Of a stretch of 64,000 nucleotides of DNA, positions 39,001-51,000 are shown one piece after another; position 1 is the stretch's first letter, and every line of letters begins with the position of its first letter. This stretch comes from Bacillota bacterium (GTDB taxonomy: Bacteria > Bacillota > UBA4882 > JBLNCG01). The stretch covers positions 79,559 through 143,558 of the forward strand of contig JBLNCG010000061.1 of NCBI GenBank assembly GCA_050260475.1, given 5' to 3'. The position numbers are program-made.

Positions 39001-42000
39001 CTGTATTTTATCCACCAGATCCCCTTCGTCATTGGTTTGAAAAAATTCCACCGTACAGCCTGTTTTTCGCGCCTTCTCCCGGACCAGGCCGTTGATCTCC
39101 TCCAGGGATTTTACGCCGTATACGGCTGGTTCGCGCTCCCCAAGCAGGTTGAGGTTGGGGCCATTTAAAATCAGTATCTTCATATCGATACCTCCTACTA
39201 CTAAAAAATAGACGATGGAATACAGAGGACAGGATACAGAAGTTAAATCAAGCCCTCCCCGAGGACATTCATTACCAGATCTTTATCAATATCATCGGTG
39301 ATGATGGCTTCCCCGATTTTAACGGTAAAGACCATGCGAATCCGGCCCTGCCGCGCCTTTTTATCCCCCTGCATCAGGTCCCAGACGCGCAGGGGATTAT
39401 ACGCCGGCACAGGCAGGCCGGCAAGGAGCTTCCGCACCATGCGCAACTGCTTTTCCCCTTCTCCGGCGGACAGAATCCCCATCCTCATCGCGATCCGGGC
39501 GGCCGCGGCAATGCCCAAAGCCACCGCTTCGCCATGGCGAAAATATCCGTAGCGGAAATACGACTCCAGGGCGTGCCCTACCGTATGGCCGTAATTTAGG
39601 AGCGCCCGCTCTCCTGCCTCCTTTTCATCCCTTTCAACCACCGCGGCTTTGATCCGGCACGACCATGCCACGGCTTTTTCCAGCGCCGCGTTATCCGCCG
39701 CCACTATCCGGTCCAGATTTTCATCAAGGTATGAGAAAAAGGCGGCGTCCTTGATCATGCCGTGTTTGACCAGTTCCGTCAATCCCGCCCTCAATTCCCG
39801 GCCGGGCAGGGTTTTAAGCGTTGACAGATCGGATATCACCAGGCGCGGCTGATGAAAAGCCCCGATCAGATTTTTCCCGCGGGGGTGGTTGACGCCGACC
39901 TTCCCCCCGATGCTCGAATCCACCTGCGCCAAAAGCGTAGTGGGAATCTGGACAAGGGGCAGGCCCCGCAAGATCGTGGCTGCCGCGAATCCGGCCATGT
40001 CGCCGACAACTCCGCCGCCCAAAGCCAGCACTGCAGTCTGACGGTCCGCCGGCCAGGACAGGGCCGCATCGTAAATGCGCCGTATCTGCCCCAGATTCTT
40101 ATATTTCTCCCCGTCCGGAACCTCCACGGCCCGGCAGTTCATTCCCGCTGCCGCCAGACATTGGAGGACCGGTTTCAGATACAATCGCCCCACGGTGGGA
40201 TTTGTTACAAGCAGGCATTTCGGGCCCAGGCCGCACGCGGCGATCATTTCTCCCGCCCGCGCAGAAACACTCTCGCCGATGTGAATACGATAACCGCAGC
40301 CGTCTAAATTAACTGCCACAACCTTCATGAACCGGTTCCTCCAGTGCCTTTTTGGACGGGGATTGGACCATCTCCATGGCCAGGGAGATCCCCATGATGC
40401 TCCAGAGCAGCGGCCAGGTGCTGACTTTGTCGTAAATGAACGCCCCTTGCGCCAGATAAGCAAGTAGCAGCAGGCGCATGGTCAGGACAAAACATCTTTC
40501 GCCTTTTGCCAAAAAAAGGCAGCGAAAAAGCAGCGCCAAATATGCAATCAGTCCGGGAATTCCCATCGTAACGGCCAAGTCGAGGTAAATATTATGCGCC
40601 TTGATGCTCGGGGCCTTCCCGGCCCCTTGAATATACGGCAGCGAATCCAGCCCCGCCCCCTTAAACCAGTATTTGGGCAGCACCTTAAGCATCCATTTCC
40701 ACATGGCAATACGTTCACCCGTGGAATAAAGATATCCCCGCCCCGGAATCCTGGCTTCAACCTTGCCTCTAACCGCCAAATCCGACTCCCGGCTGATGGA
40801 GGCCATTCTTTTTAACAGCATCCAGTTATGCAGAGGCAGCAGGCTCAAGACCACGGCAATACACAATCCGCAAGCCAAAGCAAGCTTAACATAATGTTTC
40901 CGGAAGCATATCAACGTACATATGGATAAACACGCCAGAGCCACCCAGGCTCCCCTGCTCAATGTGGCCAAAAGGCTGGCAAAAATCAACGCACTCAATA
41001 ACAGCCAGATTTTGCTATTGCCCCGCAAAAATTTATAAAGGGCCAAGGGCAGTAAAAACAACAGATACGTGGCGAACCAGTTGGGATTTCCCATGGTGCT
41101 GTAGCTGCGGAACAAGTTATCAAAATACCATGTGCCTCTGGGCAGCAAATTTAAGCCCAGATACTGCAGGACGCCTATGGCCGCCACCGGAACACCGCCC
41201 AGCAATAAGGCGTTTATCCCATGTTGAATATCGTCTTCCGTTTTCAGGCAGATCAGGGGGAGGCAGAGAAAAACCATGCAGAAAATCACTGTCATTAAGC
41301 CGGTGTGCTGGTAGTGGTGTCCGTAAAACGCATTTACCGCCGCCATGGTGTAATCGCTGAAGATTATCCACAGGCATCCCAGGCCGATAAATGTAAAACC
41401 CAAATTCAAGGCATCCGCGGGATAAAATCCACGGCGGGCCCTGTGATACAGCAAGCCGGCCAATACCATGCCGGCCAGAAAAAAAATGATTGTGTCGCTG
41501 TTTAATCCATAAAACGCCAAAAAATACAGGGCGGCCGTCATGGCCGGAATCAGCATCAGCGGAAAGCCGCGGATTTTTTCCCCGCGCGCGGGCCACGTGG
41601 CGCCGGCCAACGCCGCAACCGCCGCGGCGCCGAGAAACTTCAGGTAAGAATATTTCACCAGGGTAAAATGGACGAAGGAAGGGGAGAATGCCAGTGGAAA
41701 AGTGCTTAAAAAAACACAGAAAATCCATTTGCCCGTTTTATGCCAGAATTCTTTCATGCCTGATTCATTATCCTTCCCGCTGTATTCATCCGCTATTATT
41801 ATTCCATAACCGCCGGAATCATCCTGCCGGCCTGATAAATAAACACGATAAAAGACAACCCGGGCCGGACCCGGGTTTTTATATGCGCATCCGCAACCAA
41901 ATCTTAAATGGTCATACATCGCTGGTGCGCTGGGCAACGGATACTTTTACCGAGTGGGTCTCATCCGTCTTATAATCCATCTTAAAGTTTATTTGCACCG

Positions 42001-48000: not shown

Positions 48001-51000
48001 TTTACATAAGGAGTGCCGTGCGTAACGGTAAGCGTATATGTTTTCCCCCATACATTGATTTCGTTCTCGTTCAGACTGGGATCCAGCCCCCTGATGTAAT
48101 CGGTTTCAGCGGGAACATACTCGGCATTCATCACAACCATGGGATCAATGGCCCGGAAATAATCGTCCAGGTTTTTATTGACCTGTTCCACGCCGATTTC
48201 GCAGACATTGCGGAGCACGACGATCTCGCGGTCCATGGTGATGCGCTTGGTCGCATTGAGGGACGACATCATCAGGGCGCCGCTGATCAGGCTGATGGTA
48301 AACACCATAAACAGCGCGATGACCAAGGCGATTCCCTTCTGGCTTCTTAACATCTTACATACCCCCTGACAAACGGAGCACTATCAGAAAAAGAAATAGT
48401 GCTCCAACGAATTCTGGCATTAATTATATCGGATGAAACGATTTATTGCTTTACCGGACCGGGGACGATGATCTCCTGGTTCACTTCTATTTTGGCGGGA
48501 TCCGTGATATTGTTGATCTCCATGAGAACAGCCACGGTAGTGTTGAACTTTTTCGCCAGGCTGTATAAAGTGTCGCCCCTTTTGATCTTGTAGATATGAT
48601 CCGCTGGGACGGGGATTCGCAAAACTTGTCCCACTTCTAGTATATTCGACGCGGTCAGGTTGTTTTCCTTCAAAATATCGTCGACTTTGATCCCATATTT
48701 TTTCGAAATGCTGTAATAGGTGTCCTTGCGTTTGACGACGTACTGAACAATCCGGCTTCCGTCCGGCCTTTTTTCGATGTTGCCCTGCCCCTCCGGCTCC
48801 GCTTGAGGAATGCCGGGCGTCTCCCCTCCCGGTTGAGGCTGCTGCGTTCCGGGCGGGGGGGGCGGACTCTGCGCGCCCTGTTCCGGAGTGGGCGTGGGTA
48901 TGGGCGCAGGGGAGCCGGGTCCGACGCTTGGCCCCGCGGTCGGGATCCCCCCTTCGGGTTTTAGCGTCTCCCCCGCATCCTCGCCGGCGCCGCCTCCCGC
49001 CTCTAGGTCCTCGCCGGATTTCTTGAGCAGCTCCTCCAGCCGCCGGAGCTGTTCGCTTTTGGTGATTGTCGCTTCCTCCGGCTTGTCAAGGGGGATGACA
49101 ACATCCACGGAGGTGGTCGTAATGCCTGAATTTTTCAAATTCAACCTGTCCTCGGGGCTGAGCTTTCCCTTAAAAATCCTCGCCGTGATTAAAAAGATCA
49201 ATTCCTTGGTTTCCTTGGTCTGCTCCTTGTGCTGAAAAAGCTTTCCAAGGAGAGGCAGCGAACTAATGATGGGAATCCCCTTGATGTCTTCGTGCATGCT
49301 GTCCCAGAGCATCCCGCTGAACAGATAGGACTCCCCGTCGTTGATTCTGAAAATGCTGTCCACATTGCGCTTTTCAATGGACTTCATGACTCCCAGGGAA
49401 TAAGATCCGAGAGTGCTCAATTCCCCTTTGAATATGACGGTGATTTCACCTAAATTGTTGACTTGAGGCGTAATGCTGATCTTTATTCCTACATCCACAT
49501 ATGTGTACGAATAAGTCATGTTCCCGTTCTCATCCTCAGATACACCCGTTATGATGGGATATTGGGTGAACACGCCCGTCTCGCCTTTCTGGCCGTTTAA
49601 AATCGCTATGCTTGGCCTGGCCCTGACAACGGCCTCCCCTTTCTGTTCCATTGCCTCCAGGGATCCCCGCCAGTTGGGGCCAAGATCGATATTGGACAGC
49701 GTAAAAGTGCCCGCGCCGGCCAACCCCAGCATCTGGCTGGCGGAACTCGACAGTTCCTCGATGCGCACATCGAACATCACCACCGGCACCTCTATATCCA
49801 ACTGGCGGATGATTTCCTCCAGGTTCTGCAGTTGGAGTTCAAACCCTTTCACCACAAGGATGTTCGCCTTTTCATCGGCCTTGATGTTGTCCTTGCCGAA
49901 CAAGCCCAACACCTCGGTTGCGGCGGCCAGGTCCTTGGCGGCAATATAATTGAGATGGAATATTCTGGTGGTTTGCAAATCGAAATTTTTGGCCATGGTT
50001 TCTTCTGCGCCGACGATGTAAACGTTATTATATTTCATAAATTTCAATCCCTTGAGGCGGGCGAGAAAATCCAGGGCCTGTTCGCAAGTATAATTGGGCA
50101 GGGTTAAGGTTATCTTATCCGCCTTTACATTATCATCCATGGCGATCCCTACGTTGAAAGCCCGTCCGATCAACCTGAACGCATCCCTGAGGGGCGTATC
50201 CACAAACTCGAAAGTCCGTACGTCTCCGGCACCGGAGGGAGTATATCCGTTGGCATTCACGGCCTCAAACGCCAGGAACAGACAAAAAGCCGCCAGTAAA
50301 AATTGCCCCCAACACCTTTTCACCGGGTCATCCCTCCCCCAATTTCAGGTAGTAGCTTTCTCCATCCTTGCCCAGTTCCACGCCGTTCGCATCGATCCGG
50401 TTTATGATGTACCCGTAAACATTGTCGCCCACGGCGACAACGGGATAATTGCCGTCCCTGGTGTCAAGCAGGGCGATGAAATTCGCCCGCGAGGCGACAA
50501 TCCCCAAAACTCTGAACTCCCAGGGCTTCAGGTTCTGCGAACGGGTTACTTTCTTTAATTCTTTTTGTCTTTCCACATTTTTCAGCACTTCCGTCCGGTT
50601 CTTGGTGGAGCTTATATCCTCTTCCAAAGGTACGAAAGGGTTGTGCCGCCCGGTTTTTATCATGGTGGCAAAGGCCTCTTCTCCGATATAGGTGGACTGG
50701 GACATGCTCCCCGTTACATTTGTCTGTATGGAGGCGCTTGTCGGTTGCGCGGCCGGGCTCCCCGGAACCGGGTTTGTCTGAGTCGCCCCGGGCCTGGGGG
50801 CCATGGCGGGTTGAATAAGGTACTGGTACGCCAAGGCGCCTCCGCCCACCGCGATCACGGCGATAAGGACGCCGACGGTAACCGGATTTTCTTTTTTTCC
50901 AGCGCTTTTTTCAGCCATCAGTAAATAAAGCCTCCCTGCGTGCTCATATAGGCTTGCGCCGTAATTTGCACCGACATCTGGCCGCCGCCGTCCCCGCTGA

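What the first reader, a model, noticed from the sequence alone, without database searches (positions are those of the whole stretch)
41912..48353. Tandem duplicated, strongly diverged three-gene pilus-tip cassettes
Two consecutive cassettes have identical architecture:
- Each starts with a giant class-III-signal protein lacking Glu5 (731 aa and 660 aa).
- Each continues with a ~145-aa minor pilin, then a 163-192-aa minor pilin.
- They span 48353-45122 and 44859-41912 and are separated by a family A repeat.
- Corresponding genes are clear paralogs with short conserved blocks but extensive divergence.
- Within each cassette the genes are tightly coupled (4-nt overlap or 2-36-nt gaps).

Established knowledge: GspK-GspI-GspJ-type trimers cap pseudopili, and the PilX/PilV/PilW sets prime T4P.

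Inference:
- The locus encodes two alternative tip or priming complexes for one machine and one major pilin. They might have different adhesive or uptake specificities.
- By eye this stretch is more AT-rich than the housekeeping flanks. That would fit diversifying or horizontally exchanged surface modules.
Basis: partly seen in the sequence, partly recalled or inferred. Interest (0 to 1): 0.75.

Follow-up and report, generated by a model that had tools for sequence, protein, structure and literature searches.

The report
Two tandem pilus-tip gene sets
At the end of a type IV pilus operon in an uncultured spore-forming bacterium, two old, diverged copies of a three-gene set each encode a large ComZ/PilX-like capping protein and two small minor pilins; the duplication is real, but bacteria with several alternative pilus-tip sets are already known.

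Summary
On the minus strand, K1-I1-J1 (48353-45122) and K2-I2-J2 (44850/44859-41912) are full-length paralogues. Identities are 31, 35 and 36 % (E = 4e-93, 1e-25, 3e-36). All six ORFs are intact and have ribosome-binding sites. A dispersed palindromic repeat separates the two sets.

The large proteins match no Pfam family. An exhaustive profile search places them in a widespread unannotated family that includes cyanobacterial HpsA/PilX. The AlphaFold model of K1 has one significant PDB neighbour, Thermus ComZ, a pilin fold with an inserted beta-solenoid that is argued to sit at the pilus tip. K1 and K2 share a conserved scaffold and differ in four indel-rich segments. In the nearest relative, one of those segments holds a discoidin carbohydrate-binding domain.

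Two alternative tip/priming modules for one machine is therefore the best reading. It rests on homology and is not demonstrated. The proteins work like GspK-I-J but are not GspK family members.

The AT-richness claim is only partly true: cassette 2 is GC-poor, K1 is not. dN/dS is uninformative because dS is saturated.

Precedents exist in Myxococcus (three sets) and cyanobacteria (two sets). I also found tandem duplicated sets in Gemmatimonadota genomes. Verdict: a new member of a known kind, of modest interest.

The parts
46158..48353 (-). K1: 731-aa Glu5-less cap protein with a pilin N-terminal helix and a beta-rich insert (ComZ/PilX-HpsA-like)
   Evidence: ORF with SD GGGGG. No Pfam hit. 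Local HpsA hit. Family of 436 relatives that includes true HpsA. AF2 pTM 0.73. Only significant PDB neighbour is ComZ 6qvi, E = 5.6e-5.
45715..46161 (-). I1: 148-aa minor pilin (KG|LGFVE, Glu5). Its start overlaps the K1 stop by 4 nt.
45122..45700 (-). J1: 192-aa minor pilin (G|FTFSE)
   Evidence: N_methyl 21.9 bits, above the 21.2 cutoff.
44851..45121 (-). Intercassette spacer (GC 0.385). It contains a REP/MITE-like palindromic repeat copy at 44913-45031.
   Evidence: Repeat family. Hairpin on the transcript strand has dG -36.3 kcal/mol, z = -4.8, with no U-tract. No Rfam family. No terminator-like site here, and promoter-like sites are not above background.
42877..44850 (-). K2: 657-aa paralogue of K1 (the ORF list gives an alternative GTG start at 44859, 660 aa)
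   Evidence: Local HpsA hit.
42440..42865 (-). I2: minor pilin of about 141 aa (G|FTIPE); the ORF list gives an alternative GTG start at 42874
   Evidence: (weak XpsI/GspI and PilV hits on the N-terminal helix).
41912..42397 (-). J2: minor pilin of about 161 aa (G|FTLVE); the ORF list gives an alternative TTG start at 42403
   Evidence: (weak GspJ hit, residues 12-101). AF2 pLDDT 80.6, helix 15-68 followed by 8 strands.
41857..41877 (-). Terminator-like GC-rich hairpin 35 nt after the J2 stop; likely end of the pil operon
   Evidence: 9-bp stem with 6 GC pairs, then a T-rich tail.
48443..50323 (-). Secretin (PilQ-type) with two C-terminal LysM domains, immediately upstream of K1 (89-nt gap)
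   Evidence: Pfam Secretin, Secretin_N and 2x LysM. Same secretin-then-K synteny in relative L011.
50328..53105 (-). pilM, pilN, pilO and a pilP-like gene (alignment subcomplex)
   Evidence: PilM_2 and PilO Pfam hits on the Logan contig.
53874..59494 (-). pilB, pilT, pilC, pilA (the single major pilin in view, 55183-54722) and pilD (prepilin peptidase)

Best explanation
The two cassettes are ancient paralogous tip/priming modules for the type IVa pilus machine encoded just upstream.

Proposed mechanism:
- In each module the large Glu5-less protein (K) is the first subunit laid down. It has an N-terminal pilin helix, a small pilin sheet and a large beta-solenoid-type insert, as in Thermus ComZ and cyanobacterial PilX/HpsA.
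- The two small Glu5-bearing minor pilins (I, J) dock beneath K through their N-terminal helices and link it to the PilA fibre.
- The bulky insert ends up at the distal tip, where it caps the filament and presents a binding surface.
- K1 and K2 keep the scaffold but differ in four indel-rich surface segments. A given pilus would therefore carry either a K1 tip or a K2 tip, with different ligand preferences such as a polysaccharide or surface versus DNA.
- The stable REP-like hairpin between the cassettes probably sets their expression ratio within one transcript.

Shown here: the paralogy, intactness, operon position, family membership of K and the fold similarity to ComZ.

Inferred: trimer formation, tip location, alternative rather than joint use, the different ligands and the role of the hairpin.
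For: - Full-length paralogy of all three pairs.
- All ORFs are intact, with SD sequences and tight coupling.
- The cassettes are the last genes of a complete T4aP operon. A terminator-like hairpin follows J2 and none lies between the cassettes.
- The 64 kb holds only PilA plus the four small Glu5 pilins. There is no PilY1 and no second machine.
- K lacks Glu5. By established knowledge this is the hallmark of the capping subunits GspK and PilX; it is also stated in the preprint 10.64898/2026.02.12.705559.
- K1 and K2 hit the C-terminal block of HpsA. The exhaustive profile search finds 436 relatives, including bona fide HpsA. One relative is named PilX by JGI and two carry PilX_N.
- In distant loci the family member occupies the last position of a pilA, FimT-like, PilV-like, PilW-like, K cluster.
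- The AF2 model of K1 has a long helix, a beta-sheet and many short strands. Its only significant PDB hit is ComZ.
- ComZ is described as a GspK-like pilin fold with an inserted beta-solenoid. It cannot fit into the fibre body, binds the neighbouring minor pilin PilA2 and binds DNA (PMC6561018).
- The scaffold is 35-47 % identical between K1 and K2. The four variable segments are 12-19 % identical, with 16-56 % gaps and low pLDDT.
- The nearest relative, P0003, carries an F5/8-type-C domain in one of those segments.
- Precedents for several sets serving one machine: Myxococcus, where cluster_1 or cluster_3 alone suffices (PMC7541494), and cyanobacterial EPS versus Com sets.
- Tandem duplicated sets with the same 'scaffold plus mid-protein indel' pattern occur in Gemmatimonadota.
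Against: - There is no direct evidence of complex formation. The tools offer no multimer modelling and return no coordinates.
- The subtype of I and J (GspI/PilV versus GspJ/PilW) is unresolved.
- Each set has only two small pilins and no FimT/GspH-type adapter, so a set may not be self-sufficient.
- The ComZ match has a low TM-score (0.25/0.34), and the K1 model is only moderately confident (pLDDT 68.8).
- Nothing is known about expression.
- Only 64 kb is visible, so other pilins or machines may exist elsewhere in the genome.
- dN/dS cannot speak to diversifying selection.
Confidence: 0.62

Rival explanations
1. One composite complex. The two cassettes have sub-functionalised and all six proteins are needed together. 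One I/J pair would, for example, take over the FimT/GspH adapter role that is missing from the locus.
For: - Each cassette has only two Glu5 minor pilins, whereas canonical sets have three plus the cap. Distant members of the same K family do sit in four-gene sets.
- Both cassettes appear to lie in one transcription unit, with no terminator between them.
Against: - Every gene has its own paralogue in the same order, which is the pattern of redundancy or alternation rather than complementation.
- Two Glu5-less caps are hard to place in one filament, by inference from the GspK/PilX capping logic.
- Three-gene minor-pilin sets are the norm proposed for Bacillota T4P (PilU/PilV/PilK in C. difficile; PMC9556784).
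- The relative L011 shows K followed by I directly after the secretin, as here.
Confidence: 0.12
2. Different filaments. One cassette primes a filament built from another major pilin, or works with another machine encoded outside the window, such as a competence pseudopilus. This would resemble the wide and narrow pili of Thermus.
For: - Only 64 kb of the genome is visible.
- A ComFB-domain gene lies inside the operon.
- ComZ, the structural neighbour, is competence-specific.
- Cyanobacterial sets prime morphologically distinct filaments.
Against: - Both cassettes are embedded in the same operon, downstream of the same secretin.
- The window holds no second major pilin or ATPase set.
- In cyanobacteria the two filament types are described as drawing on the same major pilin pool.
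Confidence: 0.15
3. Redundant relic. One cassette, most likely the promoter-distal and GC-poorer cassette 2, is a barely expressed duplicate on its way to loss. Alternatively it is a xenologous insertion with no distinct role.
For: - Cassette 2 has lower GC and GC3.
- It lies behind a very stable hairpin.
- It is flanked by a mobile-looking repeat.
Against: - All three cassette-2 ORFs are intact, although dS between the copies is saturated (>2). That is far longer than a neutral ORF would stay open.
- The conserved family blocks are retained in K2.
- SD sequences are present.
- The GC3 deviation is under 1.5 SD, and K1 deviates as much in the opposite direction.
Confidence: 0.06

Closest known systems
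ComZ of Thermus thermophilus (PDB 6QVI), with its partner minor pilin PilA2
   Same: - N-terminal hydrophobic helix and a GspK-like pilin sheet.
- A large beta-rich (solenoid) insert makes up most of the protein.
- Encoded next to small minor pilins.
- Argued to sit at the tip.
- It is the only significant structural neighbour of the K1 model.
   Different: - No sequence similarity is detectable, even with a 30-sequence profile.
- ComZ is a single copy in a five-gene competence locus.
- DNA binding has not been tested for K1 or K2.
- The insertion point in K1 could not be verified, because model coordinates are not returned.
Cyanobacterial PilX(EPS)/HpsA and PilX(Com) core minor-pilin sets (bioRxiv 10.64898/2026.02.12.705559)
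   Same: - Glu5-less PilX-type cap with a beta-solenoid insert.
- The K family is linked to HpsA by sequence profiles.
- Two paralogous sets in one genome prime pili with different functions.
- No PilY1.
   Different: - K1 and K2 score far below the HpsA equivalog cutoff (25 and 22 bits against 400), and only the conserved blocks match.
- The cyanobacterial sets have four pilins (PilX-PilV-PilW-FimT), are usually at separate loci and belong to deeply split subfamilies.
- Here there are two three-gene sets of the same subfamily, in tandem, in a spore-forming organism related to Bacillota MAGs.
Myxococcus xanthus minor-pilin/PilY1 clusters 1-3 (PMC7541494)
   Same: Several paralogous priming/tip sets serve one machine and one major pilin. 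Individual sets suffice and they are differentially expressed.
   Different: - The Myxococcus sets have five genes, including PilY1 as adhesin/plug, and small PilX proteins.
- They are dispersed, not tandem.
- Here the cap itself carries the bulky domain and no PilY1 is present.
GspK-GspI-GspJ pseudopilus tip of type II secretion (PDB 3CI0)
   Same: A three-protein logic: a large Glu5-less cap plus two small Glu5 partners. There are weak N-terminal-helix hits of I2 to XpsI/GspI and of J2 to GspJ.
   Different: - K1 and K2 give no GspK or T2SSK hit.
- The inserted domain is beta-rich rather than alpha-helical.
- The system has PilT and PilM/N/O/P/Q, so it is a T4aP and not a T2SS.
Clostridial PilK/PilU/PilV minor pilins (C. 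difficile)
   Same: A three-gene minor-pilin set in a Bacillota T4P operon, proposed to form the tip complex.
   Different: - Single copy in a monoderm organism with no secretin.
- Homology of PilK to K1/K2 was not tested here, because no PilK sequence was at hand.
Tandem duplicated minor-pilin sets in Gemmatimonadota MAGs (L054, L092, L106) and in metagenome locus L021
   Same: - Same K family in the Gemmatimonadota loci, with whole-set tandem duplication on one strand.
- The L054 copies share the scaffold (51 % identity) and differ by a large mid-protein indel.
- L021 has two sets of small-small-large genes.
   Different: - The Gemmatimonadota loci have four-gene sets with K last, whereas here K comes first.
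- The copies are less diverged (L054) or have unrelated caps (L021).
- None of these has been described in the literature I could search.

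Membership tests
Type IV pilin-like proteins (class III signal, PF07963 / TIGR02532) | Short basic leader ending in Gly(-1), then a hydrophobic alpha1-N helix with Glu at +5 | tested here: met
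   I2, J1 and J2 pass the Pfam N_methyl cutoff (25.9, 21.9 and 27.9 bits against 21.2). I1 scores 18.3 bits but has KG|LGFVE with Glu5. K1 and K2 have the Gly and the helix but no Glu5.
Type IV pilin-like proteins (class III signal, PF07963 / TIGR02532) | Pilin fold: a long N-terminal helix packed on an antiparallel beta-sheet | tested here: met
   J2 AF2 model, pLDDT 80.6: helix 15-68 followed by 8 strands. K1 model: helix 3-68 and a sheet at 98-153. I1 and I2 were not modelled.
GspK (T2SS minor pseudopilin K; NF037980, Pfam T2SSK) | Sequence match to the GspK models | tested here: not met
   K1 and K2 give no hit at E <= 0.1 in Pfam or NCBIfam. Only distant family members hit the first ~60 residues of GspK.
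GspK (T2SS minor pseudopilin K; NF037980, Pfam T2SSK) | Alpha-helical domain inserted in the pilin sheet | tested here: not met
   The K1 insert is dominated by short beta-strands. GspK was not among the Foldseek hits.
GspK (T2SS minor pseudopilin K; NF037980, Pfam T2SSK) | Lacks Glu5 (capping subunit) | tested here: met
   K1 has Ile at +5 and K2 has Val at +5.
PilX_N (PF14341) proteins | Match to the PilX N-terminal model | tested here: not met
   K1 and K2 give no hit at E <= 0.1. Relatives P0152 and P0153 carry PF14341, and JGI names P0151 PilX.
ComZ / cyanobacterial PilX-HpsA type beta-solenoid tip pilins | Pilin domain plus a large beta-solenoid domain in one chain | tested here: met
   AF2 secondary structure. 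The only significant PDB neighbour is ComZ 6qvi_B, E = 5.6e-5, prob 1.00, though TM is only 0.25/0.34.
ComZ / cyanobacterial PilX-HpsA type beta-solenoid tip pilins | [quoted passage not shown] | not testable with these tools
   Model coordinates are not returned. A long C-terminal strand (701-716) after the insert is compatible with this topology.
ComZ / cyanobacterial PilX-HpsA type beta-solenoid tip pilins | Sequence homology to HpsA (NF038301) | tested here: inconclusive
   Local hits only: E = 3e-6 and 4e-5, 25 and 22 bits against a 400-bit cutoff. The K1+K2 profile does retrieve true HpsA (P0109 at 505 bits, P0140 at 671 bits), and intermediates match both HpsA blocks. K1 and K2 are therefore homologous in the conserved blocks but are not HpsA equivalogs.
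ComZ / cyanobacterial PilX-HpsA type beta-solenoid tip pilins | Encoded with PilV/PilW-type small minor pilins in a T4P context | tested here: met
   Window. Distant family loci have pilA, FimT-like, PilV-like, PilW-like and then K.
ComZ / cyanobacterial PilX-HpsA type beta-solenoid tip pilins | Located at the pilus tip; binds a partner minor pilin and a ligand (DNA or EPS) | not testable with these tools
   Needs biochemistry or imaging.
Multiple alternative priming/tip sets for one T4aP machine (Myxococcus, cyanobacteria) | Two or more complete paralogous sets in the genome | tested here: met
Multiple alternative priming/tip sets for one T4aP machine (Myxococcus, cyanobacteria) | A single machine and a single major pilin serve all sets | tested here: inconclusive
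   True within the 64-kb window. The rest of the genome is unseen.
Multiple alternative priming/tip sets for one T4aP machine (Myxococcus, cyanobacteria) | Each set alone supports piliation; the sets differ in function or expression | not testable with these tools
   Needs genetics or transcriptomics.

The most novel reading that the evidence does not exclude
A diderm endospore-former makes two physically and functionally distinct pili from a single operon, for example a DNA-uptake pilus and an adhesive or motility pilus. It does this by choosing between two ComZ/HpsA-type beta-solenoid caps, with a REP-like hairpin between the cassettes fixing their expression ratio. This would extend the 'two specialised nanomachines from one machine' model just proposed for cyanobacteria to a Bacillota-related lineage. 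It would also point to a widespread tip-pilin family, absent from Pfam and found in at least 8 phyla, whose variable inserts act as exchangeable ligand-binding modules.
Probability: 0.3. Interest if true: 0.55.

Novelty: new member of a known kind. Interest (0 to 1): 0.35.

Why it matters
- It adds a compact example to the emerging view that one type IV pilus machine can be fitted with alternative priming/tip complexes. Here there are two three-gene sets in tandem in one operon, in a barely sampled spore-forming lineage that has an outer-membrane secretin.
- The large cap proteins belong to a widespread family: 436 cluster representatives, and at least 383 loci in species-representative genomes across Gemmatimonadota, Verrucomicrobiota, Omnitrophota, Planctomycetota and cyanobacteria.
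- That family has no Pfam model. It shares conserved blocks such as Y-x-G-G-x-E-N-F-x-R-F-L-E-x-W and appears to be the ComZ/PilX-HpsA tip pilin.
- A family model would improve annotation of many T4P loci.
- The variable inserts, such as the discoidin domain in the nearest relative, are natural candidates for ligand specificity.
- It does not open a new kind of biology.

Tried and rejected
- **Word-indexed homologue searches.** K1 alone returned only itself. The 30-sequence alignment returned three distant PilX-annotated proteins.
- **Genome-collection scans.** K1, P0003 and a secretin alignment found no close relatives. The first secretin scan gave only 25-45 % relatives that lack the cassette. 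Copy-number variation among close relatives therefore could not be assessed. The one relative, L011, is cut after the I-like gene.
- **dN/dS.** NG86 gives dN 0.54-0.64, and dS 2.1-2.4 or undefined. Third-position identity is 35-39 %. The values are saturated and uninformative.
- **Timing of the duplication relative to the P0003 lineage.** The first NJ bootstrap timed out. The four-point quartet test was unresolved, at 122/102/76 of 300 bootstraps.
- **Profile-profile comparison of I and J with the small pilins of L021.** Only the N-terminal helix aligned and the cross-controls scored alike, so this cannot assign subtypes.
- **Foldseek of the J2 model.** No significant PDB neighbour.
- **Sequence and profile searches of the PDB with K.** Nothing found, including ComZ.
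- **Rfam scan of the whole window.** No family found, so the spacer repeat is not a known RNA.
- **Promoter scan.** 16 sites found against 12 +/- 3.3 expected, so there is no evidence for or against an internal promoter for cassette 2.
- **Horizontal-transfer signature.** GC3 and codon-usage deviations are modest and of opposite sign in the two cassettes, so this was rejected as evidence.
- **Possible gene conversion.** The 47-nt 85 % DNA match between K1 and K2 (repeat D8) lies at the position of the conserved NGGLENFVR motif. By my own reading of the codons, 9 of 15 codons are identical, so no conversion need be invoked.
- **Complex modelling.** A linker-fused K-I-J chain was considered and dropped. 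The structure tool is single-chain and returns no coordinates, so an interface could not be judged.

Full report
**1. What is in the sequence**

The region lies at the 3' end of a long minus-strand type IV pilus operon:

| Gene | Coordinates |
|---|---|
| pilB | 59494-57779 |
| pilT | 57719-56655 |
| pilC | 56550-55312 |
| pilA | 55183-54722 |
| pilD | 54659-53874 |
| ComFB-domain gene | 53670-53410 |
| pilM, pilN, pilO, pilP-like | 53105-50328 |
| Secretin with two C-terminal LysM domains | 50323-48443 |

After an 89-nt gap come K1 (48353-46158, 731 aa), I1 (46161-45715, 148 aa) and J1 (45700-45122, 192 aa). A spacer of about 270 nt follows. Then come K2 (44859/44850-42877), I2 (42874/42865-42440) and J2 (42403/42397-41912).

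A strong terminator-like hairpin lies 35 nt after J2 (41877-41857). Beyond it are a Wzy_C-domain gene, aroB, aroQ and pepP. The rest of the window is housekeeping and sporulation genes: SecDF, Tgt, YqfD, SpoIIIAA/AE, PolA, AccC and a sporulation-type sigma factor. The organism is therefore a spore-former that nevertheless has an outer-membrane secretin. Its secretin's nearest genomic relatives are uncultured 'Bacillota bacterium' MAGs at 25-45 % identity.

**2. Check of the observation**

The three pairs are paralogous over their whole lengths:
- K1/K2: 31 % identity, E = 4e-93.
- I1/I2: 35 %, E = 1e-25.
- J1/J2: 36 %, E = 3e-36.

This rules out chance.

K1 and K2 have a Gly(-1) leader and a hydrophobic helix but carry Ile or Val instead of Glu at +5. 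I1, I2, J1, J2 and PilA all have Glu5, and they are the only such proteins in the 64 kb.

Shine-Dalgarno positions suggest slightly shorter K2 (ATG at 44850, 657 aa, which is also the database gene call), I2 (ATG at 42865) and J2 (ATG at 42397). The K1/I1 4-nt overlap and the short gaps are as stated.

The spacer does contain one copy of a dispersed, internally palindromic repeat of about 120 nt.

**3.

*dN/dS.* dS is saturated (2.1-2.4 or undefined), and third-position identity is 35-39 %. The duplication is therefore ancient and the ratio says nothing about diversifying selection. That all six ORFs remain intact after so much divergence argues that both copies are under purifying selection. 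This rules out the 'decaying pseudogene set' criterion.

*Composition.* Cassette 2 is GC-poor (0.488, lowest 3 % of 3-kb windows). Cassette 1 is average (0.519 against a mean of 0.525). K1 has among the highest GC3 values in the window. There is no coherent sign of foreign origin.

*Related genomes.* The lineage is almost unsampled. K1 has no relative in the word-indexed protein search. No close relative turned up in 185,579 species-representative genomes.

*Exhaustive search.* A HMMER search of 1.84 billion cluster representatives found only one close relative, P0003 (E = 1e-81). Its 5.2-kb contig shows the same order: LysM-secretin (42 % identical), then K, then an I-like gene. The contig ends there. 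K1, K2 and P0003 are nearly equidistant, at 39, 34 and 35 % on trimmed columns. A quartet test could not order them. The duplication is thus about as old as the split between organisms whose secretins are 42 % identical.

**4. What the large proteins are**

K1 and K2 match no Pfam family. Both hit the C-terminal block of NCBIfam HpsA locally.

The exhaustive search with a K1+K2 profile gave 436 hits at E <= 1e-3. Most are 550-750 aa and share three blocks:
- F-x-F-Y-x-x-D-L-E-I-x-P-G...G-x-V-H-x-N-G
- F-Y-D-x-R-E
- P-L-Y-V-x-G-N-x-N ... Y-x-G-G-x-E-N-F-x-R-F-L-E-x-W ... P-P-x-R-x-W

The hits include bona fide cyanobacterial HpsA (P0109 and P0140, above the equivalog cutoff). Intermediates match HpsA at both blocks, and some also match the first 60 residues of GspK. 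One relative is annotated 'Tfp pilus assembly protein PilX', and two carry PilX_N.

In longer metagenomic and genomic loci the family member is typically the last gene of a pilA, FimT-like (~200-220 aa), PilV-like (~135 aa), PilW-like (~300 aa), K cluster. That is the PilX position.

A scan of genomes with the conserved motif confirmed at least 383 loci. They come from Gemmatimonadota, Verrucomicrobiota/Kiritimatiellia, Omnitrophota, Planctomycetota, Sumerlaeota, Binatia and delta-proteobacterial or Bdellovibrio-like MAGs. None of the best 80 is labelled Bacillota.

**5. Structure**

AlphaFold2 of K1 with the 30-sequence family alignment gave pTM 0.73 and mean pLDDT 68.8. The model has a 66-residue N-terminal helix, a beta-sheet at 98-153, and then a long series of short strands ending in a long C-terminal strand.

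Foldseek against the PDB gave exactly one significant match: ComZ of Thermus thermophilus (6qvi_B, E = 5.6e-5, probability 1.00; TM only 0.25/0.34, as expected for a two-domain protein with a free helix).

The ComZ paper describes a GspK-like pilin fold with a ~380-residue triangular beta-solenoid inserted between the penultimate and last strands. ComZ is too bulky to fit anywhere but the fibre tip. It binds the adjacent minor pilin PilA2 and binds DNA (PMC6561018).

A 2026 preprint reports the same architecture for all cyanobacterial PilX proteins. It notes homology of one subfamily to HpsA. It proposes that the solenoid replaces PilY1 as the tip plug. It also shows that two PilX/PilV-defined sets prime two functionally distinct pili (10.64898/2026.02.12.705559).

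Sequence (K to HpsA), structure (K to ComZ) and literature (HpsA/PilX to ComZ) thus agree.

J2 modelled confidently (pLDDT 80.6) as a classic pilin, with a 54-residue helix and eight strands. It has no significant PDB neighbour. Profile comparisons with small pilins from other loci aligned only the helix. The labels 'GspI-like' and 'GspJ-like' therefore rest only on size, order and weak sub-threshold hits.

**6. How the two copies differ**

Along K1, the helix, the solenoid blocks and the C-terminal block are 35-47 % identical to K2 and are modelled well. Four segments (69-97, 233-329, 351-382, 511-560) are 12-19 % identical, have 16-56 % gaps and have low pLDDT. Block identity correlates with pLDDT (Spearman rho = 0.56).

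In P0003 the third of these regions holds a complete F5/8-type-C (discoidin) domain, a carbohydrate-binding fold.

The same 'conserved scaffold plus large mid-protein indel' pattern is seen between the two tandem K copies of a Gemmatimonadota locus (51 % identity). This is what one expects if the scaffold builds the tip and the inserts contact ligands. That reading remains an inference.

**7. Mechanism proposed**

By established knowledge of GspK-I-J, FimU-PilVWX and ComZ-PilA2, the Glu5-less subunit is laid down first, the small Glu5 pilins assemble beneath it, and major pilin is then added. The complex therefore both primes assembly and ends up at the tip.

I propose that K1-I1-J1 and K2-I2-J2 are two such modules competing for the same PilBCMNOPQ machine and the same PilA pool. 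They would give pili with one of two tips.

The spacer repeat folds into a very stable hairpin on the transcript strand (-36.3 kcal/mol, z = -4.8) and has no U-tract. By analogy with REP elements (my own knowledge, not tested here), it could stabilise the upstream message or attenuate read-through, so that cassette 1 is expressed more than cassette 2.

What each tip binds is unknown. DNA (as for ComZ) and polysaccharide or surface (as for HpsA/PilX-EPS, and as the discoidin insert in the relative suggests) are the obvious candidates. The ComFB-domain gene in the operon hints at a link to competence or cyclic-dinucleotide control, but I did not test this.

**8. Rivals**

- A single composite complex. 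Each set lacks a FimT/GspH-type adapter.
- One cassette serving a filament or machine encoded outside the window.
- A redundant relic.

These are weighed in the rival section of the report. The gene-for-gene paralogy, the presence of two caps and the intactness of the ORFs make them less likely. None is excluded without complex modelling, expression data or genetics.

**9. Comparison with what is known, and novelty**

In function this works like a GspK-I-J or PilVWX tip complex. In membership, K1 and K2 fail the GspK and PilX_N sequence tests and have a different inserted domain. They belong instead with the ComZ / cyanobacterial PilX-HpsA type.

Several alternative sets for one machine are established in Myxococcus: three clusters, with cluster_1 or cluster_3 alone sufficient. 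They have also been proposed for cyanobacteria. Three-gene minor-pilin sets are proposed for Clostridial T4P.

Whole-set tandem duplications with the same K family occur in Gemmatimonadota MAGs (L054, L092, L106). A more diverged tandem pair occurs in L021. Overall, 5 of 80 family loci have two strong K genes.

What is particular here:
- The minimal K-first three-gene format.
- The tandem position directly behind the secretin, within one operon.
- The very deep divergence of the copies.
- The host lineage, a spore-former with a LysM-secretin.

I therefore rate it a new member of a known kind, with modest interest (0.35). The by-product of wider use is the delineation of a large tip-pilin family that has no Pfam model.

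Noticed in passing
window 1141-1252, 32169-32267, 35999-36121, 36826-36955, 44913-45031; partial copies at 59543-59584 and 62943-62991: A dispersed, internally palindromic intergenic repeat of about 120 nt (REP/MITE-like), found in both orientations. The core reads GCAATTGCGTTGTTA...ACGTCTTGCC...GGCAAGAC...TAACAACGCAATTGC. It has no Rfam match. The intercassette copy folds at -36.3 kcal/mol (z = -4.8). The Logan contig L010 breaks about 119 nt after J1, which is at this repeat.
   Followed up: partly
window 25718-25819 and 53774-53873: A second repeat family: two inverted copies of about 100 nt, 87-88 % complementary. One copy lies in the gap between pilD and the ComFB gene.
   Followed up: no
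window 40309-41757 (minus strand): A Wzy_C / O-antigen-ligase-domain membrane protein (Pfam E = 3.7e-19) sits right after the pil-operon terminator. From my own knowledge, the pilin O-oligosaccharyltransferases PglL and TfpO carry this domain, so it may glycosylate the pilins. Its real start is probably Met61 at about 41757, not the TTG at 41937 that overlaps J2.
   Followed up: no
window 53410-53670 (minus strand): An 86-aa ComFB-domain protein (PF10719) is encoded inside the pilus operon, between pilD and pilM. It may link the locus to competence or cyclic-dinucleotide regulation.
   Followed up: no
window 48443-50323 (minus strand); also L001-L006 and L011: The secretin has a Pro/Gly/Glu-rich linker and two C-terminal LysM peptidoglycan-binding domains. 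Its relatives in uncultured Bacillota MAGs share this architecture.
   Followed up: partly
L011 2563-4785 (protein P0003): The nearest relative of K1/K2 carries a complete F5/8-type-C (discoidin) domain at residues 339-453. It is inserted exactly in a K1/K2 hyper-variable segment.
   Followed up: yes
L054 2206-10654, L092 2613-10654, L106 about 6700-14983 (first K at 8048-10723); L021 13054-18437: Independent tandem duplications of whole minor-pilin sets. In three Gemmatimonadota MAGs the set FimT-PilV-PilW-K occurs twice, and the L054 K copies are 51 % identical. One metagenome locus (L021) has two small-small-large sets whose caps share only the N-terminus.
   Followed up: partly
window J1 residues ~114-118 and J2 residues ~96-100: A conserved D-G-D-G-N loop (EIKLDGDGNICHY / EIRVDGDGNVTHY) is present in both J paralogues. 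It resembles a calcium-binding loop, but this is a guess.
   Followed up: no
window 43540-44604 (+) and 46968-48350 (+): Long antisense ORFs (354 and 460 aa) lie opposite K2 and K1. They are probably shadow ORFs. I found no evidence that they are genes.
   Followed up: no
L048 5074-7212 and 11756-14692: In an unclassified MAG, a K-family gene is flanked by giant prepilin-signal proteins of 712 and 978 aa. This is a different and unexplored minor-pilin architecture.
   Followed up: no
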